NCBI GenBank assembly: GCA_038064795.1
Contig: JBBTSH010000041.1
Coordinates: forward strand, 1 to 37,671
Length of the DNA stretch: 37,671 nt
Reading direction: 5' to 3'
Source of the DNA: Patescibacteria group bacterium
GTDB taxonomy: Bacteria; Patescibacteriota; Minisyncoccia; Phycocordibacterales; SBAW01
The notes under the pieces are model-generated. The model worked only from the letters and a program-made list of their open reading frames with translations. It was not told the DNA's origin and searched no databases. The translations under genes were made by a program, and so were the position numbers. Shown in pieces: positions 19,878 through 37,671 of the stretch; position 1 is the stretch's first letter; every line of letters begins with the position of its first letter.

Positions 19878-19881
19878 CACT

Positions 19882-20274: not shown

Positions 20275-20277
20275 GTA

Positions 20278-23392: not shown

Positions 23393-23432
23393 CTTCATTG
23401 CTGCGAGGGAGGTTTAATACTAGAATCTCGCT

Positions 23433-25990: not shown

Positions 25991-27237
25991 AATATTGTAC
26001 CCGCTGCGTATATCCGGCAAACCATCCTCTTAATCTCACCTTCGACAAAGATGGGGTGTGCAGCGGTTGCCGCGTCCATGAAGAAAAAGACATGCTTACT
26101 TGGGATGAACGTTTCCTAAAACTAAAGAAAATTACCGATTCGTATAAAAATCAATCCGGCAATAGTTACGATTGCGTAGTGCCGGTCTCGGGCGCTCGCG
26201 ATTCTTATTTTATTGTGCATACGGTAATTAAAAAGCTCGGGTTGCGTCCGCTTTTGGTAACGTATAACAAGCACTACAACACTGAACGCGGCATTAGAAA
26301 CCTGGCTTATTTGCGCACGCTTTTCGGGTGCGACATTCTCACCATGAACGTGAGTCCCGAGCGCGTAAAAAATGTTACCAGGGCTTCCTTACGTAAGATG
26401 GGCAGCATGTATTGGCACTGTCTTGCGGGGCAAACGGTTTTTCCCGTTCAGGTGGCGGTACGCTTTAAAATTCCACTTATTATTTGGGGAGTGCATCAGG
26501 GGATCGATCAGGTTGGGATGTTTTCGCACCTTGATGAAGTGGAGATGACCCGCAAATATCGCAAAGATCACGATCTCATGGGCTTTGAAGCCGAGGATTT
26601 AATAGATGAGAGTATGCACGTGACAGAGGATGACGTGCTGCCGTACCTCTACCCGCATGACAAAGAAATAGAGAAAGTCGGCGTACGGGGTATCTACTTA
26701 CAAAATTACATCCGCTGGGACAGCAAGGCGCAGCACGAGCAAATGATCAATGAGTATGAATATGAGAGCGCACCGCAGACACGGACGTTTGATACCTACA
26801 ACGATGTAGACTGTTTTAACTACTCGGACGTACACGACTATATAAAATTTTTGAAGTGGGGCTACAGTAAAATCACGGACCACGTGTCCCGTGAGATAAG
26901 ACTCAAGAGATTGACGAGAGACGAGGGGATAGAACTTGTGAAAAACTACTCGCTTCGTATGCCAAAAAATCTGCAGCTTTTTTTACGATGGATTGGAGTC
27001 GCCGAGAGCGGGTTTAATTACTTTATCGACGAGCGGCGCGACCCAACTGTGTGGCGAAAAAACGAAGACAGCGTGTGGGAGCTGAAGGACAGTGTCTTAA
27101 ATCATAGTAACGATGAAGGAGTAGACACGGTACGGCTTGATAAAAAGGAGGAGTGCAAATTCATCATCACACCCTCTAAAGTAACGGCTCCGGAAAAAGA
27201 AGACTATACGATAATCGGCAAAGGGTATGTTAATTAA
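25987..27237 (+). CDS. Second N-acetyl sugar amidotransferase paralogue (variant PP-loop SGARDS, longer C-terminus)
   Basis: MKYCTRCVYPANHPLNLTFDKDGVCSGCRVHEEK and CVVPVSGARDSYF. Shares architecture with 23433-24509. ATGA overlap with the upstream gene. Confidence 0.75.
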   Translation: MKYCTRCVYPANHPLNLTFDKDGVCSGCRVHEEKDMLTWDERFLKLKKITDSYKNQSGNSYDCVVPVSGARDSYFIVHTVIKKLGLRPLLVTYNKHYNTERGIRNLAYLRTLFGCDILTMNVSPERVKNVTRASLRKMGSMYWHCLAGQTVFPVQVAVRFKIPLIIWGVHQGIDQVGMFSHLDEVEMTRKYRKDHDLMGFEAEDLIDESMHVTEDDVLPYLYPHDKEIEKVGVRGIYLQNYIRWDSKAQHEQMINEYEYESAPQTRTFDTYNDVDCFNYSDVHDYIKFLKWGYSKITDHVSREIRLKRLTRDEGIELVKNYSLRMPKNLQLFLRWIGVAESGFNYFIDERRDPTVWRKNEDSVWELKDSVLNHSNDEGVDTVRLDKKEECKFIITPSKVTAPEKEDYTIIGKGYVN

Positions 27238-27745
27238 AGGCAATCGCGTATGTTTGCGCCCGTTGAAGCAAGGCGATGTGGGTGCGAGATACCTGCGCTG
27301 GATGAATGATCCGAAAGTGCAGGAGTATACACGCCGGCGCGGCATCAGGACGACACTCAAAGAGTTACAGTCATTTGTCACAGAAACAAAAAAATCTAAA
27401 AATCTATATTTTGCGATTCTGGTGGGCAAAAAGCATATCGGAAACTTGTTCTTGTACCTAGGAAAGAACAAGAGTGCAGACCTCTCTATTATGATCGGAG
27501 CGCGCAACGAGCAAGGTAAGGGCTATGCCAGCGAGGCGATTGGGGCGGCAAGCAAGTTCGCATTTGATCGGTGGGGCGTCTCTTCGCTGACGGCCGGCTC
27601 CGCAAATCCCGGCTTTAACGCCGTTATGCGAAAATTAGGATGGAAGCGCACCAAGGTAAAAAGAAAGGGCTTTGTGCTGGGGGCGCGGCGTCGGGATGTA
27701 GGATATTGGCGGATGGTAAAGAAAACCTATGCAAGAAGGAAATAA
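27227..27745 (+). CDS. GNAT-family N-acetyltransferase (RimJ/RimL/PseH-like)
   Basis: VCLRPLKQGDVGARYLRWMNDPKV...IGNLFL...GKGYASEAIGAASKFAFD. Confidence 0.65.
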   Translation: MLIKGNRVCLRPLKQGDVGARYLRWMNDPKVQEYTRRRGIRTTLKELQSFVTETKKSKNLYFAILVGKKHIGNLFLYLGKNKSADLSIMIGARNEQGKGYASEAIGAASKFAFDRWGVSSLTAGSANPGFNAVMRKLGWKRTKVKRKGFVLGARRRDVGYWRMVKKTYARRK

Positions 27746-28253
27746 TATATATCTGAGGCCGCTCGTCGAAGATGATTTCAATGATCGTTATTTAACGTGG
27801 TTCAAGGACGCGGAAGTCACTCGATTTTTAGAGGCGCGCAATATAACGCGGGAGGATGCCATAAAGCATCTGCACGATGGCGAAGATGGAAAGAACTGGC
27901 GGCTGTATGCGATCTGCGAAAAAGCGACCGAGAGGCATATCGGTAACATAAAAATAGGACCGATTGATTGGAAAAACGGAGTATCTGATCTGGTCACGGT
28001 GATAGGAGAGCGTGATGCGTGGGGCAAGGGCTACGCCAGAGAGGCAATCAAAAGGGGTATGGAGATAGCATTTGATGAATTGCACATTCGCAAACTTTCC
28101 GCGAGCATTGTGTCGGGGAACACGGGTTCGATAAAGGCGTATACCGCCGCCGGCTTTACCGTGGAGGCCACACTTAAAGATCAATATAAGGACGCTGCTG
28201 GTCAAATGTATGACAAGGTTTTTGTGAGCGCTTTTGCTCCTCTCAAGCAGTGA
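27729..28253 (+). CDS. GNAT-family N-acetyltransferase (RimJ/RimL/PseH-like), tandem paralogue
   Basis: IYLRPLVEDDFNDRYLTWFKDAEV...IGNIKIGPIDW...GKGYAREAIKRGMEIAFDEL...GNTGSIKAYTAAGF. Confidence 0.7.
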   Translation: MQEGNNIYLRPLVEDDFNDRYLTWFKDAEVTRFLEARNITREDAIKHLHDGEDGKNWRLYAICEKATERHIGNIKIGPIDWKNGVSDLVTVIGERDAWGKGYAREAIKRGMEIAFDELHIRKLSASIVSGNTGSIKAYTAAGFTVEATLKDQYKDAAGQMYDKVFVSAFAPLKQ

Positions 28254-28296
28254 CCTCAGGGTTGAAAAGGGCGTTATATCAGGGTAGGGTGGCCAT

Positions 28297-29058
28297 ATGT
28301 ATAAAGACAGGAGCGAGCGAATAGTGGCGACTATCGAGGCGCGGATGACCTCAACTCGTCTGCCCGGCAAAGTCTTGATGCCGCTTGTCGGTAAGCCGGT
28401 GCTGCAGCATATCATCGAGAGGCTCCAGCGTAGTCAGTACGTCGATGTCATCTGCCTGGCAACCACCACCAACAAGACGGACGACCCCACGGCAGCCCTG
28501 GCGGAAGATCTCGGGGTAGCGGTGTTTCGCGGCAGCGAAGAGGATGTGCTTGGCCGAGTACTCGGAGCAGCACAGTCAGTGCGGGCCGATCTCATTGTGG
28601 AGGTAAGCGGTGATTGCCCTGCAATTGACCACCGAGACATTGATCGCGGCATTGAAGAGTTTTTTAAAAGTGGTGCCGAGTATGTGGCAAACAATATTGA
28701 GGCCACCTATCCAACGGGCGGCTTTGAAGTAATTATCTTTCGGACATCTGCCTTGGCCGAAGTCGCGGCAATAGTCAAAGAACCGATATACCGCACCCAT
28801 GTTTCCTATTACTTTGCTACCCATCCTGAAAAATATCGGCAGCAAAATTTTAAGGCTCCGCTGAAAGCCACAGCCCCGGAACTTAGGGTGGTGCTTGATG
28901 AAAAGGCGGACTATGAACTGCTCAACAAAGTATTCGAGAGCCTTTATCCCCTCACGCCAGATTTCGGCGCTGAAGACGTTGTACAGTTTTTAAAAGCCAA
29001 CCCGCAAGTCGCAGCGCTTAATAGCAATGTACGAAGAAAAAAGGCCCATGAACTCTAA
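28297..29058 (+). CDS. Cytidylyltransferase, SpsF/acylneuraminate cytidylyltransferase family (CTP_transf_3)
   Basis: IVATIEARMTSTRLPGKVLMPLVGKPVLQHIIERL is the characteristic N-terminal motif of the SpsF-type enzymes. Confidence 0.65.
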   Translation: MYKDRSERIVATIEARMTSTRLPGKVLMPLVGKPVLQHIIERLQRSQYVDVICLATTTNKTDDPTAALAEDLGVAVFRGSEEDVLGRVLGAAQSVRADLIVEVSGDCPAIDHRDIDRGIEEFFKSGAEYVANNIEATYPTGGFEVIIFRTSALAEVAAIVKEPIYRTHVSYYFATHPEKYRQQNFKAPLKATAPELRVVLDEKADYELLNKVFESLYPLTPDFGAEDVVQFLKANPQVAALNSNVRRKKAHEL

Positions 29059-29902
29059 AAGACAATATACGGTGGCAATTATCGGGGCAGGTCGTATTGC
29101 TGCTTTTTTTGATACGCCGGCATCAACGCATATACTCACTCATGCACACGCGATTACGAAAAATTCCAGATTGAAACTCGTCGGGTTCGCAGACACGAAC
29201 GTACGGGCTGGCAGGGAAGCCGCGAAGGTGTGGAAGACATCGTTTTTTTCTTCCGCAAAAAAACTATTTACAGCGGCTAAGCCGGATATTGTGGTAATTG
29301 CTACTCCGGACAAGACCCACGTATCGCTCATGGTGGAACTTTCGAGGCTCAAACCACGCCTTATCATTTGCGAGAAACCCGTGGTCACCCGCAAAAGTGA
29401 CATTGCGAAATTGAAGAAACGGCGGTTACCGCCTGTTATTGTCAATTACTCGCGGCGCTTTGATCCTGTGGTGCAAAAAGTTGCCGGCGAAATAAAAAAA
29501 GGTCTCTGGGGCAAAATTATTGCCGCTCGAGGTATCTACACAGGCTCTTTACTGCACAACGGCTCTCACCTCGTCGACCTCGGACGGTTTCTTCTTCCGA
29601 ACGTCACGATACAGCTCACGGAAGGCGACGCGAAGGCATACTCGCTTTTTGAGCTTGATATCTTAACAAGCAAGGGCCGCCTGCGCTTTATAGAAAGCGG
29701 CCAAAAGTTAATGATCGAGCGACCGCACAAAGACCCGCTCTATAGGGGGTTTGTGACGCTCGGTCGTGCTTCCATACAAAAAACCGGACTCCATGATGCT
29801 TTGCCCAATCTTTACCGACATGCCATTGCGGTCTTGGATGGTAAAAAAAGTGCATCTCCTAACCTCACAGAAGCCCTAAAAACTGAAAGTGAAGTACTAT
29901 AG
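29048..29902 (+). CDS. Gfo/Idh/MocA-family NAD(P) oxidoreductase
   Basis: YTVAIIGAGRIAAFF, VVIATPDKTH, IICEKP. The start is ambiguous between 29027 and 29048. Confidence 0.6.
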   Translation: MNSKRQYTVAIIGAGRIAAFFDTPASTHILTHAHAITKNSRLKLVGFADTNVRAGREAAKVWKTSFFSSAKKLFTAAKPDIVVIATPDKTHVSLMVELSRLKPRLIICEKPVVTRKSDIAKLKKRRLPPVIVNYSRRFDPVVQKVAGEIKKGLWGKIIAARGIYTGSLLHNGSHLVDLGRFLLPNVTIQLTEGDAKAYSLFELDILTSKGRLRFIESGQKLMIERPHKDPLYRGFVTLGRASIQKTGLHDALPNLYRHAIAVLDGKKSASPNLTEALKTESEVL

Positions 29903-29906
29903 CGAT

Positions 29907-31115
29907 ATGTCGGAACTTGCAATCAATGGGGGGAAGGCCGTGCGCACCGCACCTTTCCCCCTGTACAACACGATAGGGAAGGAAGAAAAGAATGCCGTGA
30001 ACCGGGTTATGGACTCCGGCGTGCTCTCAAAATATATCGGTGTGTGGCATAAAGATTTTTACGGCGGAGTCGAGGTGCAGGCGTTTGAGCGTGAGTGGGA
30101 GAAGCGATTTGGAGTGAAGCACGCCATCGCCATGAATTCGGCCACCTCGGCACTCATCGCCTCTGTGGGTGCGCTTGGCATTAAGCCGGGGGACGAAGTG
30201 ATTGTAAGCCCCTATACCATGGTTGCTTCCGTTTCTTGTGTGTTGTGGTGGGGAGGTGTGCCTGTTTTTGCCGATATCGAACCGGAGTACTTTTGTCTTG
30301 ATCCGAAGTCCGTTGAAGCGGCAATCACCCCGCACACCAAAGCAATTATCGTCGTCGATATTTTTGGCGGCGTGTACGACGTCGAGCGAATTGCAGCGAT
30401 TGCAAAAAAACATAATCTCAAAATCGTAGAAGATGCCGCACAAGCCCCCGGTGCCAGCCACAAAGGCAAGGGCGCTGGCACGTTTGCCGATATTGGCGTT
30501 TATTCGCTCAATTTTCATAAGCATATACACACCGGTGAGGGCGGGGTGGCGGTTACTGAAGATGATGTTTTAGCAGAGCGGCTGCAGCTCATACGCAATC
30601 ATGCCGAAGCGGTGGTAGAAGCAAAAGGGGACCCCGATCAAAAACTCATTGGGCAAAACTACCGCCTGACGGAAATGCAGGCAGCGATAGGTCGTGAGCA
30701 ATTAAAAAAACTCGATGCACTGGTGGCACAGAGACGAAAAAATTGTGCGTATCTCGCAGAGCGTCTGCGCGATCTGCCCGGTATCGTGCCCGCGCCAGAG
30801 CGCGCGGGGAGCGAACATGTTTTTTATGTGCAGCCGTTCCTGTATGACGAAAAAATTGTCGGGGTAACGCGCAAACGCTTTATCGAGGCGCTCCTTGCTG
30901 AGCTGCCCGGGGCTTCAATTTCAGGCGGGTACGTCAAACCCATTTATCGAATGCCGCTTTTCGGTATAACCAAAGATCTGTGTCCTACCACCGAACGTCT
31001 CTACAACAGCGAACTTTTGCTGCATGAAATGATGCATCCAGGCATGAGTACAAAAGATCTCGATGACGTCATCGAAGCGTTTCATAAAGTATATCTTCAT
31101 CGAGACGAGCTATGA
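29907..31115 (+). CDS. DegT/DnrJ/EryC1/StrS-family PLP sugar aminotransferase (canonical Lys present)
   Basis: LAINGGKAVR, AMNSATSALIASV, GDEVIVSPYTMVAS, IVEDAAQAPGA, YSLNFHKHIHTGEGGVAVT. I chose the ATG at 29907, 5 nt after the upstream stop. The track start is a GTG at 29889. Confidence 0.8.
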   Translation: MSELAINGGKAVRTAPFPLYNTIGKEEKNAVNRVMDSGVLSKYIGVWHKDFYGGVEVQAFEREWEKRFGVKHAIAMNSATSALIASVGALGIKPGDEVIVSPYTMVASVSCVLWWGGVPVFADIEPEYFCLDPKSVEAAITPHTKAIIVVDIFGGVYDVERIAAIAKKHNLKIVEDAAQAPGASHKGKGAGTFADIGVYSLNFHKHIHTGEGGVAVTEDDVLAERLQLIRNHAEAVVEAKGDPDQKLIGQNYRLTEMQAAIGREQLKKLDALVAQRRKNCAYLAERLRDLPGIVPAPERAGSEHVFYVQPFLYDEKIVGVTRKRFIEALLAELPGASISGGYVKPIYRMPLFGITKDLCPTTERLYNSELLLHEMMHPGMSTKDLDDVIEAFHKVYLHRDEL

Positions 31116-31969
31116 AAAGCGTGTTAGTCGTGGCGCATGACGCCGGTGCCGCGGAGATTATTGGCGCATATCTAAAAACTCACACGAAGGGGAAGCACTA
31201 TAGTGTCTATGCCGCGGGACCGGCGGCGCGCATCTTTCGTCGGGAGCGCATTCCTTTTCGGGTGATTCGTGAAAACAAAAAAAACATCGCGCACATAGTA
31301 GCCAAACACAGAGACGCCGCGCTTGCGCTTCTTGGTACGGGATGGATGACCACGATTGAGCGGGAGTCGCTGACATGTGCAAAAAAAGCAGGGATTAGGA
31401 CCGCCGTGTATTTAGAATCGTGGGGCGATTATCGCACCAGATTTGGATACCCCGCCAAAAATTGGAAAGATACTTTGCCGGACGAACTATGGGTCGGAGA
31501 TCGCTTTGCGTGGACGCTTGCGGGACACTATTTCCCGGGGGTAGCGCGACGGATGGTCAGAAACCAGTACCTTGCCGGTATCGCATCTCGGTATAGAAAA
31601 TCGTCTAAGCGAAGAGACCGCATTGTGTTCATGAGTCGGCCAGCCCCAAACACAGCGCACATGATAAAGGAACTGCTGCAACACACCCACTACCCGATCC
31701 GAATCCGTCTGCACCCGGCCGAAGATCCTAAGCGGTTTGACGGACTCATTAAGCAGCACAAAGGCAGAATCGAGAAATCCCGCGAGAAAGATTTAGTCCA
31801 CGATCTCGTGCGTGCCCGCGCGGTGGTGGGACCCGAGACGGTTGCCATGGTCGCCTCAGCGTCAGTGCATATACCCACAGTCCGCATTTGTACGGGCACT
31901 CCGATACTTCCGCATCATATACAAACTGCAACAACCGTCGCACGCGCGCTTAAGATTTTAAGACTATGA
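31112..31969 (+). CDS. Hypothetical protein (two Rossmann-like halves; function unknown)
   Basis: A 285-aa ORF translationally coupled at both ends (ATGA overlaps), so coding status is secure. I recognise no diagnostic motif. Its size and position would suit a PseG-type hydrolase, but the PseG N-terminal motif is absent. Confidence 0.5.
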   Translation: MKSVLVVAHDAGAAEIIGAYLKTHTKGKHYSVYAAGPAARIFRRERIPFRVIRENKKNIAHIVAKHRDAALALLGTGWMTTIERESLTCAKKAGIRTAVYLESWGDYRTRFGYPAKNWKDTLPDELWVGDRFAWTLAGHYFPGVARRMVRNQYLAGIASRYRKSSKRRDRIVFMSRPAPNTAHMIKELLQHTHYPIRIRLHPAEDPKRFDGLIKQHKGRIEKSREKDLVHDLVRARAVVGPETVAMVASASVHIPTVRICTGTPILPHHIQTATTVARALKILRL

Positions 31970-34050
31970 TCACTAATCTCTACGAACATATTGCCCGTTT
32001 AGCCAAAGAGCATCCGCAAAAAGTGGTGCTGCTTTCCTGCGACGAAGCGGGAAACACGCTGCAAGAGATCACCTACGCAAAGCTGCTGGAGCATCTGTCC
32101 GTTGCGGCTGCGGGACTCAAGAAATTAGGCCTGCGGCCGAACGATAGAGTGGCGCTTAATTTCGGCAATTGCCCGGAACTCCTTATAGTGAGCTGGGCTG
32201 CATGGATGAGCGGAGTTGTCACCGTGCCGCTTGATACCAAACGCGATACCAGTGAGCTCACGGAGTTTAAGACGTCTCTGAGTAAGGCCGCCATAGTGTT
32301 GTCTCAAAAAGACGTACAAAGTTTTTCAGGAGGTGAGGCGCAGTGGATGAAGGATCTATCGCACGAGGCCCTTATCCTTTTTACCTCCGGGACCACTGCG
32401 CGACCCAAAGGGGCGCAACTTTCGTTGAAAAATCTTGTTGTGAACGCCGACGGTATTGCGAAGTGGCTTAAGATTACTCCCCAAGACCGTTTTTTGGTGC
32501 AGCTGCCGCTTCATCACATTAATTCCACCACCTTCTGTCTCTCGGCATTACTTGCGGGTGCAAGCATTGCCATAGTTCCTCGCTACTCCAATTCGCATTT
32601 TTGGCAGCAGGCTGCCAGAACGGGCTCAACGATTACCTCGATCGTGCAATCTATCGTGTTTGACCAACTACAGCGCAAAGAAGCATATGCTACGTCGAAA
32701 CATGATCTCAAACTATCGAGAATTCAGATAGGATCGGCTCCGGTGGTTGCCGCAAGTGCCAAGGAGTTTATTCAAACATTTGGCATCCCGCTGTATCAGG
32801 GCTATGGTCAAACGGAGACTGCTTTGCGGGTAACCGGAGTACCCACCGATCTCCCCGAACCGCTCTTTGAACAACTGGTCGAAGAAAACTCGATTGGCAC
32901 GCCGCTCCAATGGGCTCAGGTTGAAATAACTGATGAAGAGGGGAAAATCTTAGGAGAAAACAGCGAGGGCGAGCTCGTCGTGAAAGGCCCTGCGATAATG
33001 GCGGGGTATTTGGCAGGAGAGCCTGCGTTTAGAGACGGGTATTTTTTAACTGGCGATATCGGTCTGTATAAAGTGATCGAAGGCAAGAGGTTTTTCTATC
33101 TGCGTGGACGCAAAAGCGAGATGATAATTAAAGGAGGTGTTAATATCTCACCGGTCGCGGTTGAAAATGCTTTGAAAAAAGTCTCCGCTGACATCGATCA
33201 AGCATATGTTGTTGGTGTCGAGGACGAACGGTATGGTCAAGAGGTCGGTGCAATTATTATCCTCAAGAGTGGCGTAGAGGATGCTGCCGCCAAACGCCGG
33301 ATCAAATTCGCACTTTTGTCCGGCTCGCCTCACCTAAGTGCCTACGAGACACCAAAGTTTGTGCGCTTTGTCACCGTAGAGGAGCTGCCAGCGACATCAA
33401 CGGGCAAAGTTCAGCGCACGGTGTTAAAGAAATCGCCTAAAGAGAGTTACCAGTCGATATACGATCTGTTTGAAACTAAAGAAAACCGCTTCACAGTCAT
33501 AGATCCTCAATCCCGCTATGTGAGGCAGTCACACGAACTGTATAATCATTGTTGGCAACCGCTCCTCGTGACTCTAGATGCATATAAGAAAAAACTGAGC
33601 AAAGAAACTACGATCGCAGCAGTAGATACTCATGACCAAGTAATTGGACAAATCTCTTTTACACGAGACAAAGACACACTAACGTGTGTTTCTATCTGCA
33701 GCTCAGCATACAAAGCAAAACCGATAGTTCATGTAGAAAAGATTCCTTCGCCGCAAGAGGTGGAAACATATCTGCTTGCAGGACATGATCCGGTTATGAA
33801 TTTCCATACAAACTTGGGAGCGACTCTTATGAAAGTCATTCCACAGGGCAGGCCCGATGACAAAAGTTCGCTCGGCTATACGATGCTTCTCAAGTATCCC
33901 TCTGCTCCGGACATGAAGATTACCGAGAATAATCCCATCTCAAGCCAACTCATTGAGGCGGTTCGAATGCTCGGCACTGATATAGGTTCAGAGGTCTATG
34001 CGCTTTCGCGTCCCGGAGCTCTGGCGCACTATATGGCAAAGCAACGATAG
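31966..34050 (+). CDS. Adenylate-forming enzyme (acyl-CoA synthetase/ANL superfamily) with ~200-aa unassigned C-terminal domain
   Basis: ANL core motifs LILFTSGTTARPKGAQLS, GYGQTET, YFLTGDIG, GRKSEMIIKGGVNISP and PATSTGKVQR end near aa 490. aa ~495-694 (nt 33448-34050) are additional. Confidence 0.8.
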   Translation: MITNLYEHIARLAKEHPQKVVLLSCDEAGNTLQEITYAKLLEHLSVAAAGLKKLGLRPNDRVALNFGNCPELLIVSWAAWMSGVVTVPLDTKRDTSELTEFKTSLSKAAIVLSQKDVQSFSGGEAQWMKDLSHEALILFTSGTTARPKGAQLSLKNLVVNADGIAKWLKITPQDRFLVQLPLHHINSTTFCLSALLAGASIAIVPRYSNSHFWQQAARTGSTITSIVQSIVFDQLQRKEAYATSKHDLKLSRIQIGSAPVVAASAKEFIQTFGIPLYQGYGQTETALRVTGVPTDLPEPLFEQLVEENSIGTPLQWAQVEITDEEGKILGENSEGELVVKGPAIMAGYLAGEPAFRDGYFLTGDIGLYKVIEGKRFFYLRGRKSEMIIKGGVNISPVAVENALKKVSADIDQAYVVGVEDERYGQEVGAIIILKSGVEDAAAKRRIKFALLSGSPHLSAYETPKFVRFVTVEELPATSTGKVQRTVLKKSPKESYQSIYDLFETKENRFTVIDPQSRYVRQSHELYNHCWQPLLVTLDAYKKKLSKETTIAAVDTHDQVIGQISFTRDKDTLTCVSICSSAYKAKPIVHVEKIPSPQEVETYLLAGHDPVMNFHTNLGATLMKVIPQGRPDDKSSLGYTMLLKYPSAPDMKITENNPISSQLIEAVRMLGTDIGSEVYALSRPGALAHYMAKQR

Positions 34051-34101
34051 CTCTTTCACCGGAGTTATCTATGTGGTATAGTGCGCGGGCTTAAAAACGT
34101 C

Positions 34102-35091
34102 ATGTATACCCTTAAAAATAAGGTTATTTTGATTACCGGGGGCACCGGCTCTTTTGGTAAGGCATGTATAACAAAAATCCTCGCTGAACACGATCCGAAA
34201 GCAATCCGTATTTATAGTCGCGATGAGCTCAAACAGTGGGAAATGGCGCAAGAGTTTAGTTCCGACAAGCTCCGCTTTTTTATCGGTGATGTCCGTGACA
34301 GCGAGCGCCTTAAACGTGCCTGTGAGGGGGTGGATGTAATTTTGCATGCAGCAGCGCTCAAACAAGTCCCCGCGTGTGAGTACAACCCCATGGAGGCAGT
34401 TAAGACAAACGTAAACGGCGCCATGAATGTAATCAACGCGGCACTTGATAACAATGTTCAGAGGGTAATAGCGTTATCGACTGACAAAGCTGCGAATCCC
34501 ATCAATATTTATGGGGCGACTAAACTTGCTTCTGATAGGCTTTTTATACAATCAAATGCATACCGCGGGGCAGAGCGGGACACGCAATTTTCCGTTGTGC
34601 GTTACGGCAATGTGATGGGGAGTCGCGGCAGTATTATCCCGTTGTTTCGCGCGCAGCGTGAGAGAGGAGTGGTAACCATCACCGACGCACGCATGACTCG
34701 TTTTTGGATCACGTTGCCGCAGGCAGTCGATTTTGTACTCTCCTCACTCGCCATCATGCAGGGAGGCGAGTTGTTTGTGCCGAAAATTCCCAGCATGAAG
34801 ATAACCGATCTTGCAAAAATAATCGCGCCAAAAGCGAAACAGCAAATAATCGGCATTCGCCCCGGAGAGAAACTGCATGAGCTACTCGTCCCCGTTGGTG
34901 AAGCTCGTGAAGGGTTGGAGCTCAAAGACAGATACATTATTCTCTCTCAGTCCAGGGAATGGGATATAGACATCAGCAAATACCCCAAAGCACGAAAAAT
35001 GAAAAATGATTTTGAGTTTAACAGCAAAGATAATAAATATCTGTCGCAAAAAGAGATGCAGGCGCTCCTCAATATGCTTGATCTCGCGTAA
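34102..35091 (+). CDS. pseB: UDP-N-acetylglucosamine 4,6-dehydratase (inverting), PseB/FlaA1-type
   Basis: Near full-length motif agreement with PseB/FlaA1: KVILITGGTGSFGK, IYSRDELKQWEM, FFIGDVRD, LHAAALKQVPACEYNPMEAVKTNVNGAMNV, STDKAANPINIYGATKLASD, FSVVRYGNVMGSRGS, MTRFWITL, FVPKIPSMKITDLA, IIGIRPGEKLHE. Confidence 0.85.
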   Translation: MYTLKNKVILITGGTGSFGKACITKILAEHDPKAIRIYSRDELKQWEMAQEFSSDKLRFFIGDVRDSERLKRACEGVDVILHAAALKQVPACEYNPMEAVKTNVNGAMNVINAALDNNVQRVIALSTDKAANPINIYGATKLASDRLFIQSNAYRGAERDTQFSVVRYGNVMGSRGSIIPLFRAQRERGVVTITDARMTRFWITLPQAVDFVLSSLAIMQGGELFVPKIPSMKITDLAKIIAPKAKQQIIGIRPGEKLHELLVPVGEAREGLELKDRYIILSQSREWDIDISKYPKARKMKNDFEFNSKDNKYLSQKEMQALLNMLDLA

Positions 35092-35100
35092 GATACATTC

Positions 35101-36228
35101 ATGATCCCATACTCGACCCAAGATATTAATGAGGCTGATATCAGGGCGGTAGTAAAGACTCTGCGCTCAGGACGGCTCACTCAGGGCCCGGGGATCGATC
35201 GTTTTGAAAAAGCGCTCGCAAAAAAAGCGGGCACCAAGTATGCCGTAGTGCTCAACTCCGGCACCGCGGCGCTCCATGCGGCGTATTTTGCCGCCGGAGT
35301 GAAAAAGGACGATGAAGTTGTTGTGCCGGCACTTACCTTTGCCGCGACCGCGAATGCCGCTTTATATCTGGGGGCGAAGCCCGTCTTTGCCGATGTCGAC
35401 TTGGCAAGCGGGCTTATGACTGCAGAAACCGCACGTACGAAGATTTCAAAAAAAACAAAAGTACTCGTGCCCGTCGACTATGCCGGCCGCCCGGCCGACT
35501 ACCGTGCGCTGCGCACACTCGCTAAAAAACATAAACTCATACTCATTGCAGACGCTGCACAAAGTCTCGGAGCCCGATATCGTGGGAAGCCTGCCGCCGC
35601 GTGGGCCGATATGGCCATTTACAGTTTTCATCCGGTCAAGTCGATTACCACCGCAGAGGGCGGCGCGGTGGTGACAAACAATGCCGAGTACGCCGAGCGG
35701 GTAAAACTTTTTCGCAGCCACGGCATTACTAAAGATACTTCGCGTTTGGAGCACGCAGACGAGGGCGGTTGGTATATGGAGCAGCAGGCGCTTGGCTACA
35801 ATTACCGTATGCCTGATATTCTGGCGTCGCTCGGCGAGAGCCAGTTGAAGCGTCTTGAAGTATTTATCGCCAAACGCTCTGCTGCGGCCCGGCGATACTT
35901 TTCCTTACTCAAACATGATGTCCGCATAACGCTGCCCCCGGCCGATTCGGCAGACAACAAATCTGCCTGGCATCTCTACACAGTGCGCGTAGACTCCCGC
36001 AAACGCCGCGCAGCTTTTGACGCCCTGCGTGCTGCGGGGATAGGGGTGCAGGTACACCATATTCCGGTACATCTGCACCCGTACTACCAGAAACTTGGAT
36101 ATACAAAAGGGTCCTGCCCGAACGTCGAAGCCTGGTATGCGAGCGAAATCTCCCTGCCAATATTTGCTAGAATAAGCTCCGCGCAGCAGGCGCGCGTGGT
36201 ACGGACATTGCGTAAGGCACTCGCATGA
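35101..36228 (+). CDS. pseC: UDP-4-amino-4,6-dideoxy-N-acetyl-hexosamine transaminase, PseC-type (DegT family, Lys present)
   Basis: IPYSTQDINEADIRAVVKTLRSGRLTQGP, VLNSGTAALH, VPVDYAGRPAD, ADAAQSLGA, YSFHPVKSITTAEGGAVVTNN, LFRSHGITKD, YNYRMPDI, EISLPIF. Confidence 0.8.
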   Translation: MIPYSTQDINEADIRAVVKTLRSGRLTQGPGIDRFEKALAKKAGTKYAVVLNSGTAALHAAYFAAGVKKDDEVVVPALTFAATANAALYLGAKPVFADVDLASGLMTAETARTKISKKTKVLVPVDYAGRPADYRALRTLAKKHKLILIADAAQSLGARYRGKPAAAWADMAIYSFHPVKSITTAEGGAVVTNNAEYAERVKLFRSHGITKDTSRLEHADEGGWYMEQQALGYNYRMPDILASLGESQLKRLEVFIAKRSAAARRYFSLLKHDVRITLPPADSADNKSAWHLYTVRVDSRKRRAAFDALRAAGIGVQVHHIPVHLHPYYQKLGYTKGSCPNVEAWYASEISLPIFARISSAQQARVVRTLRKALA

Positions 36229-37535
36229 AAAACTCTGGACAAAAACTTTGGAAAAGGGCGAAAAAAATAATTCCTGGCGGCGGCCAACTGTTAAGCAAGC
36301 GCGCGGAGATGTTTGCTCCCGGGGTGTGGCCCGCATACTACTCGCGCGCAAAAGGTGCGACTATTTGGGATCTCGATGGTAAAAAATACACCGACTTTTC
36401 GCTGATGGGGGTGGGAGCCAACATGCTTGGCTATGCCAACCCTGACGTCGACAATGCGGTGATAGCCGCCATCAAGCACGGCTCAATGTCGACGCTCAAT
36501 ACTCCGAAGGAAGTCGAGCTTGCCGAACTGCTGTTGCGACTCCACCCGTGGGCGGACATGGTGCGCTACGCGCGCACGGGCGGCGAGAGTATGGCTATTG
36601 CCGCACGCATTGCGCGCGCATACAGCGGGCGCGACACGATTGCCTTTTGCGGGTATCACGGTTGGGCCGACTGGTACTTAGCGACCAATTTACAAAAAAA
36701 AGATGCGCTTGCCGCGCACTTGCTGAAGGGTCTCGAGCCTAAAGGAGTTCCCCGGGGCTTGCGTGGGAGTATTGTTCCTTTTCGGTACAACCACATTGAG
36801 GAACTTGAACAAATAATCAAAAAGCACGGCAAGCTCGCTGCAGTTATTATGGAGCCCGTTCATGGAGAAGAACCACAAAAAGGATTTCTTAAAAAAGTGC
36901 GCGCACTTGCCAACAAAGCCGGTGCGGTACTTGTATTTGATGAAATCACGATGGGGTTCCGGCTCACGCTTGGAGGCGCACATCTTACGTATGGCGTTAT
37001 GCCTGACATGGCGATATTTGCCAAGGGGATGAGCAACGGCTACCCGATGGCCGCAATCATCGGCAAGAAAAACGTCATGCAGGCTGCACAAGGGACTTTT
37101 ATTTCGAGCACCTACTGGACCGAAGCGGTCGGACCCGCTGCCGCTCTCGCCACAATTCGCACCATGAAAAAAAAGAAAGTGCAGACCCGTCTTGCCGCGC
37201 TAGGCCGCCGCGTGCGTGTGGTGTGGCAGAAGGCTGCTTTGAAACACGGGCTGGTGATTAATTGCAGTGGCGTAGCGCCAATGCAATTTTTCTCTTTTTC
37301 AGGCCCTGACGCGCAAATTATAAAAACAGTTTTCGTGACCGAAATGCTCAAGCGTGGATTTTTAGCATCGAACCTTTACTACGCGAGTTTTGCGCACACC
37401 GATGCTGATGTTGCCCGCTATGAACGGGCGCTGAATGAAGTCTTCGCGCTTATCGTTAAAGCGCAAAAAATGGGGCACTTGAAGAAACTACTTAAGGGAC
37501 CCGTCGCTCACACTGGTTTCGAGCGGCTTAATTAA
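36225..37535 (+). CDS. Class-III aminotransferase, glutamate-1-semialdehyde 2,1-aminomutase (HemL)-like
   Basis: GGGQLLSKRAEMF, DLDGKKYTDF, YARTGGESMAIAARIARAY, VIMEPV, LVFDEITMGFR, and FAKGMSNGYPMAA (PLP Lys). ATGA overlap with pseC. Confidence 0.8.
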   Translation: MKNSGQKLWKRAKKIIPGGGQLLSKRAEMFAPGVWPAYYSRAKGATIWDLDGKKYTDFSLMGVGANMLGYANPDVDNAVIAAIKHGSMSTLNTPKEVELAELLLRLHPWADMVRYARTGGESMAIAARIARAYSGRDTIAFCGYHGWADWYLATNLQKKDALAAHLLKGLEPKGVPRGLRGSIVPFRYNHIEELEQIIKKHGKLAAVIMEPVHGEEPQKGFLKKVRALANKAGAVLVFDEITMGFRLTLGGAHLTYGVMPDMAIFAKGMSNGYPMAAIIGKKNVMQAAQGTFISSTYWTEAVGPAAALATIRTMKKKKVQTRLAALGRRVRVVWQKAALKHGLVINCSGVAPMQFFSFSGPDAQIIKTVFVTEMLKRGFLASNLYYASFAHTDADVARYERALNEVFALIVKAQKMGHLKKLLKGPVAHTGFERLN

Positions 37536-37543
37536 AAAAATAA

Positions 37544-37563
37544 CCCCGCGGGAAACCGCGGGG
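37544..37563 (+). terminator. GC-rich hairpin after the last gene of the long operon (terminator candidate)
   Basis: CCCCGCGG-GAAA-CCGCGGGG (8-bp stem, GNRA-type tetraloop) begins 9 nt after the stop at 37535. The nearest T-run (TTTATTTT) is about 12 nt downstream, so this is not a textbook intrinsic terminator. Confidence 0.45.
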
Positions 37564-37671
37564 TCGAACACTCAGTTTATTTTGTGACACCGGGTGCTTA
37601 GGGCCGGTCCGGATTGAATGTAAGGAGTTCCATCAGCCCCCCTTTCATTTTTTTGTATGACGACCCGACTT

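What the first reader, a model, noticed from the sequence alone, without database searches (positions are those of the whole stretch)
28297..37535. Pseudaminic-acid-like branch in scrambled order with no NeuB/PseI synthase and no clear PseG, ending at a terminator hairpin
PseB and PseC are confidently recognisable (34102-36228). PseH-like GNATs and an SpsF/PseF-family cytidylyltransferase are also present. However the window has no nonulosonate synthase (NeuB/PseI/LegI TIM-barrel with SAF domain), and no protein carries the PseG N-terminal motif. PseB and PseC also sit at the end of the operon rather than the start. They are followed by a HemL-like enzyme and an 8-bp GC hairpin. Extra enzymes are interleaved: a Gfo/Idh/MocA oxidoreductase, a second DegT, an unknown 285-aa protein and an ANL adenylase. 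There are two readings. The synthase may be encoded elsewhere. Alternatively, this operon diverts the UDP-4-amino-4,6-dideoxy-hexosamine intermediate into a different, possibly new, CMP/CDP-activated or N-acylated diamino sugar.
Basis: partly seen in the sequence, partly recalled or inferred. Interest (0 to 1): 0.65.

Follow-up and report, generated by a model that had tools for sequence, protein, structure and literature searches.

The report
Pseudaminic-acid locus cut by window edge
This is a pseudaminic-acid-type sugar pathway from an uncultured groundwater Patescibacteria bacterium; its "missing" synthase gene lies just past the window's right edge, so it is not a synthase-less pathway, but it does lack the usual PseG hydrolase and carries a widespread, unnamed enzyme family that may do that step.

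Summary
The gene calls in the finding are correct. PseB and PseC pass NCBIfam equivalog cut-offs, and no NeuB homologue lies in the window. That absence is a window-edge effect. Two metagenome contigs 99.97-99.98% identical to the window continue downstream. About 3.7 kb past the window end they encode a PseI equivalog (419.9 bits, cut-off 340.25). Next to it are an SpsF-type cytidylyltransferase fused to an aldo-keto reductase and a PseH-like GNAT.

No canonical PseG was found in the 57 kb examined.

The "interleaved extras" are not random. Cytidylyltransferase, Gfo/Idh/MocA, DegT, an optional GNAT and the 285-aa protein form a module found next to NeuB/Pse genes across phyla. The 285-aa protein is a confidently modelled GT-B fold. 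Its family is large (5,464 representatives) and unannotated.

In some loci this module plus PseB and a NeuB variant stand alone, without PseC or PseG. My best inference (about 0.45) is therefore that the 285-aa protein is the sugar-nucleotide hydrolase or epimerase. The main rival (about 0.3) is that it is a CMP-nonulosonate transferase serving a tailoring branch.

The ANL enzyme carries a rare C-terminal GNAT-like domain. Two WbuX proteins with HisH and HisF predict acetamidino groups.

Verdict: a new variant of a known pathway, of moderate interest.

The parts
21446..23392 (+). 648-aa GT-B protein. Candidate nonulosonate transferase (inference).
   Evidence: Pfam Glyphos_transf 47 bits. Weak NCBIfam hits to the BFO_1060 family glycosyltransferase and to TIGR04396 surface carbohydrate biosynthesis protein.
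23433..24509 (+). WbuX-type N-acetyl sugar amidotransferase, copy 1
   Evidence: TIGR03573 312 bits, cut-off 203.2.
24493..25131 (+). HisH-type glutamine amidotransferase subunit
   Evidence: TIGR01855 232.6 bits, cut-off 105.4.
25121..25990 (+). HisF/WbuZ-type cyclase subunit, a partner in acetamidino formation
   Evidence: PF00977 192 bits. WbuZ 252.3 bits, below its 299.7 cut-off.
25987..27237 (+). WbuX-type amidotransferase, copy 2
   Evidence: TIGR03573 337.9 bits, cut-off 203.2.
27227..27745 (+). GNAT N-acyltransferase (172 aa)
   Evidence: PF13302 63.9 bits. No NCBIfam hit.
27729..28253 (+). GNAT N-acyltransferase (174 aa). This is the GNAT type that accompanies the module in other loci.
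   Evidence: PF13302 86 bits. PseH only 30.6 bits against a 93.1 cut-off. A homologue lies next to the 285-aa family in 29/80 loci.
28297..29058 (+). SpsF/KdsB-type cytidylyltransferase (CTP253)
   Evidence: PF02348 97.7 bits. PseF 24.3 bits against a 205.7 cut-off. Best PDB sequence match is 6OEW, 'cytidylyltransferase', 127.6 bits. Overlaps the next gene by 32 nt.
29027..29902 (+). Gfo/Idh/MocA oxidoreductase (Gfo291)
   Evidence: PF01408 58.8 bits. Weak matches to inositol 2-dehydrogenase. Co-occurs with the 285-aa family in 45/47 full-flank loci.
29889..31115 (+). Second DegT aminotransferase (DegT408), a clade separate from PseC
   Evidence: PF01041 318 bits. Closest relatives are PseC, ArnB, LegC, perosamine synthase and KdnA, all below cut-offs. 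Co-occurs with the 285-aa family in 47/47 full-flank loci.
31112..31969 (+). 285-aa protein (GTB285), a member of an unannotated GT-B family. Candidate sugar-nucleotide hydrolase or epimerase, or alternatively a CMP-nonulosonate transferase.
   Evidence: No Pfam, NCBIfam or PDB sequence hit. AlphaFold2 pLDDT 95.4. Foldseek finds a GT-B fold: UDP-sugar 2-epimerases and NeuC at TM 0.69-0.76, PseG at TM 0.57. Family size is 5,464 representatives. Invariant H9-D10 and an 'R-x-H-P' motif.
31966..34050 (+). ANL adenylate-forming enzyme (residues 1-494) fused to a rare GNAT-like domain (residues 495-694)
   Evidence: PF00501 and PF13193. The C-terminal 200 aa has 6 homologues in 5.8 billion proteins. 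pLDDT 91.4. All top Foldseek matches are GNAT folds, E from 3e-4.
34081..35091 (+). PseB, the inverting UDP-GlcNAc 4,6-dehydratase. The called start is 34102.
   Evidence: TIGR03589 488.6 bits, cut-off 407.75.
35101..36228 (+). PseC aminotransferase
   Evidence: TIGR03588 457.7 bits, cut-off 423.5.
36225..37535 (+). HemL-like class-III aminotransferase, part of a recurrent AKR + class-III aminotransferase + cytidylyltransferase accessory set
   Evidence: PF00202 159.8 bits. PRK06209 275 bits, below cut-off. Found fused to CTP_transf_3 in L009.
37542..37565 (.). GC-rich hairpin shared by the convergent transcription units. Canonical intrinsic terminator on the minus strand, A-tract on the plus-strand side.
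   Evidence: Sequence. Terminator scan at L002 11341-11318, minus strand, 10 pairs followed by ATTTTTTTAA.
37598..37671 (-). 3' end of a convergent 358-aa gene (u358). GT-B-like, specific to this lineage, weakly related to the 285-aa family.
   Evidence: Gene at L002 11374-12450, minus strand. hhalign to the family: probability 18%, E 1.3e-3. No homologue in the other loci.

Best explanation
The region is the left two-thirds of a complete pseudaminic-acid-type CMP-nonulosonate (NulO) biosynthesis and tailoring locus. It sits in a glycan island longer than 57 kb in a Patescibacteria (CPR) bacterium from groundwater.

Shown by model scores:
- PseB and PseC are in the window.
- PseI lies about 3.7 kb past the window end.
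- An SpsF-type cytidylyltransferase fused to an aldo-keto reductase, and a PseH-like GNAT, sit beside PseI.
- These downstream genes are separated from the window operon by two convergent genes specific to this lineage.

Inferred core pathway: UDP-GlcNAc is converted by PseB to the UDP-4-keto sugar. PseC converts that to the 4-amino sugar. A GNAT N-acylates it. A hydrolase releases the free 2,4-diamino-2,4,6-trideoxyhexose. PseI condenses it with PEP. An SpsF-type enzyme activates the product with CMP.

The canonical hydrolase PseG is absent. The interleaved genes (cytidylyltransferase, Gfo/Idh/MocA, DegT, optional GNAT, 285-aa GT-B protein) form a conserved accessory module of NulO loci in many phyla.

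My best inference (about 0.45) is that this module is a second, LegC/LegH/LegG-like branch acting on the PseB product. Under that reading the 285-aa GT-B protein is its sugar-nucleotide hydrolase, possibly with 2-epimerase activity, and it fills the PseG gap here.

Further inferences:
- The two WbuX proteins with HisH and HisF convert N-acetyl to acetamidino groups.
- The ANL-GNAT fusion installs a non-acetyl N-acyl group.
- The 648-aa GT-B protein upstream is the likely NulO transferase.
For: Downstream continuation: contigs L001 and L002 are 99.97-99.98% identical to window 26225-37671 and continue downstream. PseI scores 419.9 bits against a 340.25 cut-off. NCBI names a protein at least 90% identical 'pseudaminic acid synthase [Patescibacteria group bacterium]'.

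In-window enzymes: PseB and PseC are above their equivalog cut-offs.

PseH candidate: the GNAT beside PseI matches the PseH half of PseG-PseH fusion proteins at 78 bits.

PseG absence: no PseG in the window, 10 kb upstream or 10 kb downstream.

Module conservation: in 47 loci with full flanks, the 285-aa family co-occurs with the DegT408 type in 47, with the Gfo type in 45 and with NeuB in 43.

Stand-alone loci: 13 loci carry a variant NeuB. Twelve of them lack PseG and 9 lack PseC, yet they keep PseB plus the module. Examples are L006 and L025 (CPR) and L059, L078 and L088 (Proteobacteria and Desulfobacterota). In these loci the 285-aa protein is the only GT-B candidate for the obligatory hydrolase step. 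Other genes there, such as Capsule_synth, can serve as transferases.

Structure: GT-B model at pLDDT 95.4. The nearest folds are UDP-sugar 2-epimerases, including the hydrolysing NeuC (TM 0.76), and PseG.

Conservation pattern: 28/165 N-domain positions are at least 90% identical, against 7/120 in the C-domain. This fits a fixed small-molecule substrate.

DegT408: most of its closest characterised relatives are C4 aminotransferases of NDP-4-keto sugars.

Other parts: WbuX, HisH and HisF scores. GNAT fold of the ANL C-terminus. SpsF-AKR fusions have already been noted in a Vibrio Pse cluster as likely PseF replacements (PMC7371886).
Against: - In 28 loci, for example Citromicrobium L055, the module sits beside a complete canonical pseBCFGHI set with a single synthase. 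So the 285-aa protein is not simply a PseG substitute.
- Profile comparisons of the family with PseG (0.7-13.5%) and with NeuC (0.6%) are insignificant. The best, still weak, matches are the C-terminal 'HP-motif' regions of the CMP-ulosonate transferases KpsS (48.6%) and NeuS (15.7%). Six of 45 members weakly hit Pfam polysialyltransferase.
- The near-obligate Gfo partner has no role in this model.
- Only 57 kb of the genome was inspected, so a PseG could lie elsewhere.
- No biochemical data exist for any of these proteins.
Confidence: 0.65

Rival explanations
1. Tailoring-and-transfer model. The core Pse pathway makes the nonulosonate. The Gfo/Idh/MocA enzyme then oxidises a remaining hydroxyl (C8 or C4). 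DegT408 transaminates the resulting ketone, and a GNAT or the ANL-GNAT fusion N-acylates the new amine. CTP253 activates the resulting triamino sugar, and the 285-aa GT-B protein is its CMP-dependent glycosyltransferase. The UDP-sugar hydrolase step would be done by something else, for example u358, a NUDIX plus phosphatase pair, or a gene elsewhere.
For: - Dehydrogenase-aminotransferase pairing is the classical logic of Gfo + DegT couples such as WbpB/WbpE, NtdC/NtdA and KdnB/KdnA (established knowledge). Gfo and DegT408 co-occur in 45/47 loci.
- KdnA is among the best PDB matches of DegT408, at 186.8 bits.
- The module coexists with full pseBCFGHI sets.
- The family has an invariant 'R-x-H-P' motif that aligns to KpsS 'HHP' and NeuS 'KPHPKE'. 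There are weak PF07388 hits in 6/45 members.
- CTP253 overlaps the Gfo gene by 32 nt.
- An 8-amino-3,5,7,8,9-pentadeoxy-manno-nonulosonic acid exists in Tenacibaculum maritimum, and its genes are unknown (PMC3210612, PMC9796276).
Against: - About 12 loci have PseB, the module and NeuB but no PseC or PseG. Under this model they have neither a C4 aminotransferase nor a hydrolase.
- The N-domain, which would bind the acceptor, is the most conserved part of the family across phyla whose acceptors should differ.
- No sialyltransferase appears in the Foldseek top 50.
- The loci already contain other candidate transferases.
Confidence: 0.3
2. Independent second sugar. Gfo, DegT, GNAT and the GT-B protein form a WbpB/WbpE/WbpD/WbpI-like route from UDP-GlcNAc(A) to a UDP-2,3-diacetamido-2,3-dideoxy-hexose and its 2-epimer. 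WbuX with HisH and HisF would act like WbpG. The resulting sugar merely travels with the Pse genes as part of one glycan block.
For: - There is a one-to-one family correspondence: Gfo = WbpB, DegT = WbpE, acetyltransferase = WbpD, GT-B = WbpI (established knowledge of the P. aeruginosa O5 pathway).
- The top Foldseek hits by E-value are WbpI-type UDP-2,3-diacetamido-2,3-dideoxy-glucuronate 2-epimerases.
- WbuX/HisH/HisF genes are adjacent here and in L008, L048 and L053.
Against: - DegT408 scores lower against the C3 aminotransferases WbpE, QdtB and NtdA (125-129 bits) than against C4-type enzymes (about 188 bits).
- There is no Epimerase_2 sequence signal.
- This model does not explain the 43/47 linkage to NeuB, the coupled cytidylyltransferase, or the stand-alone PseB + module + NeuB loci.
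Confidence: 0.1
3. One reading: the operon has no nonulosonate end point and diverts UDP-4-amino-4,6-dideoxy-hexosamine into a new CMP/CDP-activated or N-acylated diamino hexose.
For: There is no synthase inside the window. Extra acyl-activating and aminotransferase genes are present.
Against: A PseI equivalog with a SAF domain lies 3.7 kb downstream on the same contig in two independent assemblies. The same module is linked to NeuB in 43/47 loci.
Confidence: 0.04

Closest known systems
Canonical CMP-pseudaminic acid pathway (PseB, PseC, PseH, PseG, PseI, PseF of Campylobacter jejuni and Helicobacter pylori)
   Same: PseB, PseC and PseI are equivalogs by NCBIfam score. A GNAT and PF02348 cytidylyltransferases are present.
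   Different: - No PseG.
- The cytidylyltransferases are SpsF/KdsB-like, not PseF equivalogs (24 and 34 bits against a 205.7 cut-off).
- The GNATs are below the PseH cut-off.
- The genes are spread over at least three transcription units with pseB and pseC late in the operon, and carry many accessory genes.
Legionaminic acid pathway (LegB/C/H/G/I/F) with the hydrolysing 2-epimerase LegG/NeuC, and the Gfo/Idh/MocA genes that accompany such clusters (Aeromonas group III islands, PMC7874193)
   Same: An aminotransferase + N-acetyltransferase + GT-B hydrolase/epimerase + synthase + cytidylyltransferase logic. The 285-aa model is closest in fold to the UDP-sugar 2-epimerases including NeuC. A Gfo/Idh/MocA gene is paired with a nucleotidyltransferase.
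   Different: No sequence-level membership in Epimerase_2. The dehydratase is PseB-type, not LegB/PglF-type. The 285-aa protein is about 80 aa shorter than NeuC/LegG.
Pse clusters with SpsF-AKR fusions and class-III aminotransferases (Vibrio sp. B9-25K2, PMC7371886; Aeromonas group I flagellin glycosylation islands, PMC7874193)
   Same: An SpsF-like cytidylyltransferase fused to an aldo-keto reductase next to the synthase. A class-III aminotransferase and an AKR among the pse genes. A PseH-type domain fused to a lipid-metabolism-type enzyme there, and an ANL-GNAT fusion here.
   Different: Those clusters retain PseG. The functions of the accessory genes are unknown there too.
WbpB/WbpE/WbpD/WbpI plus WbpG/HisH/HisF (UDP-ManNAc3NAcA / acetamidino sugars of P. 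aeruginosa O5)
   Same: The same family set: Gfo oxidoreductase, DegT aminotransferase, acetyltransferase, GT-B epimerase-like protein, and WbuX-type amidotransferase with HisH/HisF.
   Different: DegT408 is closer to C4 aminotransferases. The GT-B protein is not an Epimerase_2 member. The module is tightly linked to NeuB and to a cytidylyltransferase.
CMP-ulosonate glycosyltransferases with the 'HP motif' (KpsS, polysialyltransferase NeuS)
   Same: An invariant R-x-H-P motif followed by a V-V-G-x-E-S region aligns to KpsS and NeuS C-terminal domains. Weak PF07388 hits.
   Different: The hhalign probabilities are only 16-49%. No contiguous D/E-D/E-G motif is evident. The protein is 285 aa against about 400 aa. 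Its N-domain is more conserved than its C-domain.
KdnA/KdnB (Kdo8N) and the 8-amino nonulosonate of Tenacibaculum maritimum
   Same: An oxidoreductase + DegT pair that could aminate a hydroxyl of an ulosonic acid. KdnA is among DegT408's best PDB matches.
   Different: KdnB is an iron alcohol dehydrogenase, not a Gfo enzyme. No link between this module and T. maritimum could be tested.

Membership tests
CMP-pseudaminic acid pathway | PseB: inverting UDP-GlcNAc 4,6-dehydratase | tested here: met
   TIGR03589 488.6 bits, cut-off 407.75.
CMP-pseudaminic acid pathway | PseC: C4 aminotransferase | tested here: met
   TIGR03588 457.7 bits, cut-off 423.5.
CMP-pseudaminic acid pathway | PseH: N-acetyltransferase | tested here: inconclusive
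   The best candidate is the GNAT at L002 16238-16705. It scores 44.5 bits on TIGR03585 (cut-off 93.1) but 78 bits against a model that includes the PseH half of PseG-PseH fusions. The window GNATs score at most 30.6 bits.
CMP-pseudaminic acid pathway | PseG: UDP-sugar hydrolase | tested here: not met
   No TIGR03590 hit for any protein scanned. A custom PseG HMM finds nothing in the window, L002 or L090, though it finds PseG in 38 other loci. The rest of the genome was not searched.
CMP-pseudaminic acid pathway | PseI: synthase (NeuB TIM barrel + SAF) | tested here: met
   Outside the window, at L002 15115-16203. TIGR03586 419.9 bits, cut-off 340.25. Pfam NeuB + SAF.
CMP-pseudaminic acid pathway | PseF: cytidylyltransferase | tested here: not met
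   TIGR03584 gives 24.3 bits (window 28297-29058) and 34.2 bits (L002 13557-15101) against a 205.7 cut-off. Both are PF02348 members, so the function is plausible but equivalog membership is not shown.
PseG / GT28-like hydrolases (as the identity of the 285-aa protein) | Sequence membership, and the G-x-G-H catalytic loop | tested here: not met
   hhalign of the family against PseG alignments gives 0.7% and 13.5%. There is no GxGH motif. The family instead has an invariant H9-D10-A-G in the equivalent beta1-alpha1 loop.
PseG / GT28-like hydrolases (as the identity of the 285-aa protein) | GT-B two-Rossmann fold of about 280 aa | tested here: met
   pLDDT 95.4. Foldseek matches PseG 3HBN/3HBM at E 1.3e-6, TM 0.57.
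UDP-GlcNAc 2-epimerase / NeuC / LegG (Epimerase_2) | Pfam PF02350 membership | tested here: not met
   One of 45 members hits at E 0.004. hhalign against E. coli NeuC gives 0.6%.
UDP-GlcNAc 2-epimerase / NeuC / LegG (Epimerase_2) | Fold similarity | tested here: met
   These are the top Foldseek hits, E 4e-9 to 1e-6, TM 0.63-0.76.
Bacterial sialyl/Kdo transferases with HP motif (GT38 NeuS, KpsS) | HP motif in the C-terminal domain | tested here: met
   H201-P202 are invariant and R199 nearly so. The motif aligns to NeuS 'KPHPKE' and KpsS 'HHP'.
Bacterial sialyl/Kdo transferases with HP motif (GT38 NeuS, KpsS) | D/E-D/E-G motif, and Pfam membership | tested here: inconclusive
   No contiguous D/E-D/E-G. 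The nearest candidates are D124-E125 and D/E102. PF07388 is hit weakly by 6/45 members, best E 5.9e-6.
WbuX/HisH/HisF sugar amidotransferase system | WbuX PP-loop protein plus HisH and HisF paralogues | tested here: met
   TIGR03573 312 and 337.9 bits (cut-off 203.2). HisH 232.6 bits (cut-off 105.4). The HisF/WbuZ family protein is present but below its equivalog cut-offs.
ANL adenylate-forming enzymes | AMP-binding and AMP-binding_C domains | tested here: met
   PF00501 208 bits and PF13193 42 bits. No specific NCBIfam equivalog is reached.

The most novel reading that the evidence does not exclude
The cytidylyltransferase-Gfo-DegT-(GNAT)-GT-B module could be an uncharacterised branch of nonulosonate metabolism, found across phyla. 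It would either make a new sugar, or a new stereoisomer of a known one. A new sugar might be a triamino (8- or 4-amino) pseudaminic-type acid like the one chemically known from Tenacibaculum maritimum, whose genes are unknown. Under this reading the 285-aa protein founds a new enzyme family, with more than 5,000 representative sequences and no Pfam or NCBIfam model. That family would be either a non-PseG, non-NeuC sugar-nucleotide hydrolase/epimerase or a new nonulosonate transferase. In Patescibacteria it would be part of the machinery that decorates the cell surface.
Probability: 0.35. Interest if true: 0.65.

Novelty: new variant of a known kind. Interest (0 to 1): 0.42.

Why it matters
Nonulosonic acids decorate flagella, S-layers, capsules and LPS, and they shape recognition by hosts and phages.

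The headline anomaly, a Pse pathway without a synthase, is an artefact of where the window ends. Three points remain of interest:
- Several Patescibacteria carry Pse-type loci with no recognisable sugar-nucleotide hydrolase.
- A large, unannotated GT-B family is almost always tied to a Gfo/DegT pair beside NeuB genes across phyla. This gives a concrete candidate for a missing or new step, and it can be tested with existing Pse/Leg substrates.
- Accessory genes already noted in Vibrio and Aeromonas Pse clusters (SpsF-AKR, class-III aminotransferase, ANL-GNAT) recur here. They point to tailored pseudaminic acids that have not been characterised.

Cultured carriers of the module exist for experiments: Citromicrobium, Massilia, Chlorobium ferrooxidans and Neptuniibacter.

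Tried and rejected
- Synthase search: I looked for NeuB/PseI in the window by Pfam on all large ORFs and by tblastn. None was found.
- PseG search: NCBIfam plus a custom HMM built from 18 PseGs, run over the window and 10 kb on each side. None was found. The first version of that HMM was contaminated by PseG-PseH fusion proteins and hit GNATs. I rebuilt it from unfused sequences.
- 285-aa protein equals PseG: rejected as a family assignment (hhalign 0.7-13.5%). It also coexists with true PseG in Citromicrobium and 27 other loci.
- 285-aa protein equals NeuC-type epimerase by sequence: rejected (0.6%).
- PDB sequence searches with the single protein and with the family profile gave nothing significant.
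- Two Pfam calls aimed at locating the weak polysialyltransferase hits missed the six members that carry them.
- I tried to test the 8-amino-nonulosonate idea against Tenacibaculum maritimum. The literature says the genes are unknown, and I could not query that genome.
- Literature searches for Gfo/Idh/MocA roles in Pse or Leg clusters returned only descriptive mentions.
- The downstream 358-aa GT-B-like protein was compared with PseG (5.7%) and with the 285-aa family (18%). Both results are inconclusive.

Full report
**1. Observation**

The window is a single large glycan-biosynthesis island. From 18672 to 37535 every gene is on the + strand, and neighbouring genes have short gaps or overlap by 4-32 nt. 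Pfam and NCBIfam scans confirm each call in the finding:
- an SpsF/KdsB-type cytidylyltransferase (28297-29058);
- a Gfo/Idh/MocA oxidoreductase (29027-29902);
- a DegT aminotransferase below every equivalog cut-off (29889-31115);
- a 285-aa protein with no hit in Pfam, NCBIfam or PDB sequences (31112-31969);
- a 694-aa ANL enzyme (31966-34050);
- PseB (488.6 bits, cut-off 407.75);
- PseC (457.7 bits, cut-off 423.5);
- a HemL-like class-III aminotransferase.

Immediately upstream lie two GNATs, two WbuX amidotransferases flanking HisH and HisF, and a 648-aa TagF-like GT-B protein. No NeuB homologue is in the window.

The hairpin at 37542-37565 is real. The scan scores it as a minus-strand intrinsic terminator for a convergent gene whose 3' end fills the last 74 nt of the window. 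On the + strand it has an A-tract before it and no T-run directly after it, so it could work in both directions.

**2. The missing synthase is a window-edge effect**

An exact-protein look-up of the last gene returned two longer contigs. One is an ENA assembly of a 0.1-µm groundwater filtrate ('Hain_H43_01um'). The other is MAG GCA_964363285.1. They match window 26225-37671 at 99.97% and 99.98% identity and run 10 kb further.

Past the hairpin come two convergent genes: a 358-aa GT-B-like protein and a 294-aa membrane protein. After a 91-nt divergent spacer comes a 514-aa fusion of a CTP_transf_3 cytidylyltransferase with an aldo-keto reductase. Next is a NeuB+SAF protein that is a PseI equivalog (419.9 bits, cut-off 340.25). 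After that come a GNAT on the opposite strand, DUF218, an MsbA/PglK-like ABC exporter, a B12-radical SAM protein and a Wzy_C-TPR protein. PseI starts about 3.7 kb beyond the window end.

NCBI names a protein at least 90% identical 'pseudaminic acid synthase [Patescibacteria group bacterium]'. It also assigns the ABC exporter, whose sequence is identical, to the same taxon. The 10 kb upstream of the window holds more glycosyltransferases, methyltransferases and sugar-modifying enzymes. The island therefore exceeds 57 kb.

**3. PseG is absent from what could be inspected**

No scanned protein reaches TIGR03590. I built a PseG HMM from 18 unfused PseGs recovered in related loci. It finds PseG in 38 of 80 comparison loci, but nothing in the window, the downstream 10 kb, the upstream 10 kb, or any Patescibacteria locus.

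A first version of that HMM contained PseG-PseH fusions. It showed incidentally that the GNAT beside PseI is the best PseH candidate, at 78 bits. Both cytidylyltransferases are far below the PseF cut-off. An SpsF-AKR fusion of this kind was previously noted in a Vibrio Pse cluster and proposed to replace the missing NeuA/PseF (PMC7371886).

**4. The 285-aa protein**

Family size depends strongly on search sensitivity:
- A word-index search found 54 unnamed homologues.
- An exhaustive profile search of 1.84 billion representatives found 5,464 at E ≤ 1e-3 and 1,075 at E ≤ 1e-30.
- A broader profile found at least 2,061 clusters, nearly all 'hypothetical protein'.

The family is therefore large but unannotated.

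AlphaFold2 with the family alignment gave pLDDT 95.4. Foldseek places the model in the GT-B fold. It is closest to UDP-sugar 2-epimerases: WbpI-type, MnaA, and the hydrolysing NeuC at TM 0.76. PseG ranks 37th (TM 0.57, E 1.3e-6).

Sequence-profile comparisons are all weak:

| Compared with | hhalign probability |
|---|---|
| PseG | 0.7-13.5% |
| NeuC | 0.6% |
| NeuE | 0.1% |
| NeuS | 15.7% |
| KpsS | 48.6% |

The NeuS and KpsS matches cover the C-terminal region. There an invariant R-x-H-P motif aligns with the 'HP motif' of CMP-ulosonate transferases. Six of 45 diverse members weakly hit Pfam polysialyltransferase, best E 5.9e-6.

Conservation is concentrated in the N-terminal domain: 28 of 165 positions are at least 90% identical, including H9, D10, E83, D/E102, W104, R110, D124, E125, D130 and N151. 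The C-terminal domain has 7 of 120.

**5. Comparative context**

A scan of one genome per GTDB species found 135 relatives, of which 80 loci were fetched. The closest, at 43-47% identity, are Patescibacteria MAGs. At 25-31% identity are Methylobacter, Gallionella, Massilia, Citromicrobium, Neptuniibacter, Devosia, Chlorobium ferrooxidans, Leptospira and others.

I used tblastn with the window's proteins. In 47 loci with at least 6 kb on both sides, the family co-occurs with:
- a DegT408-type aminotransferase in 47;
- a Gfo291-type oxidoreductase in 45;
- NeuB in 43;
- PseB in 33;
- canonical PseG in 30.

A cytidylyltransferase of the CTP253 type often precedes Gfo, and a GNAT (or, in L009, a formyltransferase) often lies beside the family member.

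Three architectures emerge from the 49 loci with at least 6 kb of flank on both sides, two of them fetched separately from the GTDB scan:
1. In 28 loci, the module follows a complete canonical Pse set. In Citromicrobium, pseB, pseC, pseF (280 bits), pseG (207 bits), pseH (133 bits) and pseI are followed directly by Gfo-DegT-GNAT-GT-B (pseF, pseG and pseH were scored and pass their cut-offs, the other three are tblastn matches at 44-53%).
2. In 13 loci the NeuB is a variant, under 40% identical to the window's PseI and undecided between the NeuB and PseI models. Twelve of these lack PseG and 9 lack PseC, yet they keep a PseB equivalog plus the module. This group includes Patescibacteria (L004, L006, L017, L018, L025) and also Proteobacteria and Desulfobacterota (L059, L078, L088).
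3. The window's own type has PseB, PseC, a PseI-type synthase and the module but no PseG. It is shared with the Patescibacteria loci L023, L026 and L071.

**6. Interpretation of the module**

A nonulosonate synthase needs a free hexose, so a sugar-nucleotide hydrolase is obligatory. In architectures 2 and 3, the 285-aa protein is the only recurrent GT-B candidate. Other genes can supply the transferase role: Capsule_synth in L004 and L006, and the 648-aa TagF-like protein here.

Most of DegT408's closest characterised relatives are C4 aminotransferases of NDP-4-keto sugars: perosamine synthase, PseC, ArnB, LegC and DesI. C3 aminotransferases score lower, although KdnA and the inosose aminotransferases score about as high as the best C4 enzymes.

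Together with the epimerase/NeuC-like fold and the strongly conserved N-domain, I favour (about 0.45) a second LegC/LegH/LegG-like branch on the PseB product, whose GT-B member is the hydrolase, possibly with 2-epimerase activity. In this genome it would cover the missing PseG step.

The main rival (about 0.3) is a tailoring branch. Gfo makes a keto group on the finished nonulosonate, DegT408 aminates it, a GNAT or the ANL-GNAT fusion acylates it, CTP253 activates it, and the GT-B protein transfers it. This explains three things:
- the near-obligate Gfo-DegT pairing;
- the coexistence with full Pse sets;
- the HP motif.

It has a chemical precedent in the 8-amino nonulosonate of Tenacibaculum maritimum, whose genes are unknown (PMC3210612, PMC9796276). 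However, it leaves architecture 2 without an aminotransferase or a hydrolase.

A WbpB/E/D/I-like independent 2,3-diamino sugar route (about 0.1) fits the family set, but not the NeuB linkage.

**7. Other accessory genes**

The ANL enzyme's C-terminal 200 residues have only six homologues in 5.8 billion proteins. They fold confidently (pLDDT 91.4) into a GNAT-like domain. The fusion would be suited to activating a carboxylate and transferring it to an amine, so a non-acetyl N-acyl group is likely (inference). The closest syntenic locus, L012, has the same fusion at 66% identity.

The HemL-like aminotransferase, the aldo-keto reductase and an SpsF-type cytidylyltransferase recur together next to NeuB. 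They appear variously fused: CTP-AKR here, and CTP-aminotransferase in L009. Aeromonas group I flagellin glycosylation islands likewise combine pseBCFI with an aldo/keto reductase and a class-III aminotransferase (PMC7874193). Their chemistry is unknown.

The two WbuX proteins with HisH and HisF predict conversion of one or two N-acetyl groups to acetamidino groups. This follows from established knowledge of the WbuX/WbpG/PseA-type systems.

**8. Verdict**

- The sequence-level observation is confirmed.
- The reading 'synthase encoded elsewhere' is correct and trivial in cause.
- The reading 'diverted to a non-nonulosonate sugar' is very unlikely.
- The absence of PseG stands for the 57 kb examined.
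- The locus is a new variant of a known pathway.

The most useful product of this analysis is the definition of a large unannotated GT-B family and its fixed Gfo/DegT partners in nonulosonate loci.

Noticed in passing
window 6-1283 (full gene at L090 8058-10004): The first window ORF is the C-terminal part of a 648-aa fusion of a GT4 glycosyltransferase with a short UDP-glucose/GDP-mannose-dehydrogenase-like module.
   Followed up: partly
window 7770-10010: A 746-aa fusion of GDP-mannose 4,6-dehydratase with a DegT aminotransferase, a single-polypeptide GDP-perosamine-type route.
   Followed up: no
window 15476-16267 and 16329-17318: A short (263-aa) UDPG_MGDP_dh-like protein that lacks the C-terminal domain, followed by an SDR. 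The same pair plus a class-III aminotransferase is conserved in the Patescibacteria locus L006.
   Followed up: no
L002 11374-13465 (minus strand); window 37598-37671 is its 3' end: Two convergent genes specific to this lineage are inserted between the hemL-like gene and the CTP-AKR/pseI unit. One is a 358-aa GT-B-like protein with an 'IHPGHGE' motif, weakly related to the 285-aa family (hhalign 18%). The other is a 294-aa multi-pass membrane protein.
   Followed up: partly
window 13026-14039; L002 17402-21311: A Patescibacteria genome, where no outer membrane is expected, encodes a GT9 heptosyltransferase-like protein, an MsbA/PglK-like ABC exporter, a B12-radical SAM enzyme and a Wzy_C (O-antigen-ligase-like) TPR protein in the same island.
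   Followed up: no
window 17953-18573 (minus strand) and L090 3377-4123, 6337-6975: Two NUDIX hydrolase genes and a HAD-type hydrolase lie in the island. In principle a NUDIX plus phosphatase pair could release a free sugar from a UDP-sugar and bypass PseG.
   Followed up: no
window 18672-19877 and L090 5074-6255: Two sugar C-methyltransferase-type genes (Methyltransf_13/14). Two FkbM methyltransferases are also present (10520-11251; 14045-14845 minus strand), which points to heavily methylated sugars.
   Followed up: no
L009 3226-5193 (also L038): A 655-aa fusion of CTP_transf_3 with a class-III aminotransferase sits next to NeuB in an Acidobacteria MAG. In several proteobacterial loci it occupies the position where pseF normally lies.
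   Followed up: partly
L083, L047, L057, L062 and others (about 5000-6600): In Methylobacter and Gallionella loci, PseG and PseH are fused into one protein of about 500 aa. This initially contaminated my PseG model.
   Followed up: yes
window 26225-37671 compared with L001 and L002: Independent assemblies of the same groundwater population differ from the window by only 2-4 substitutions in 11,447 nt.
   Followed up: yes
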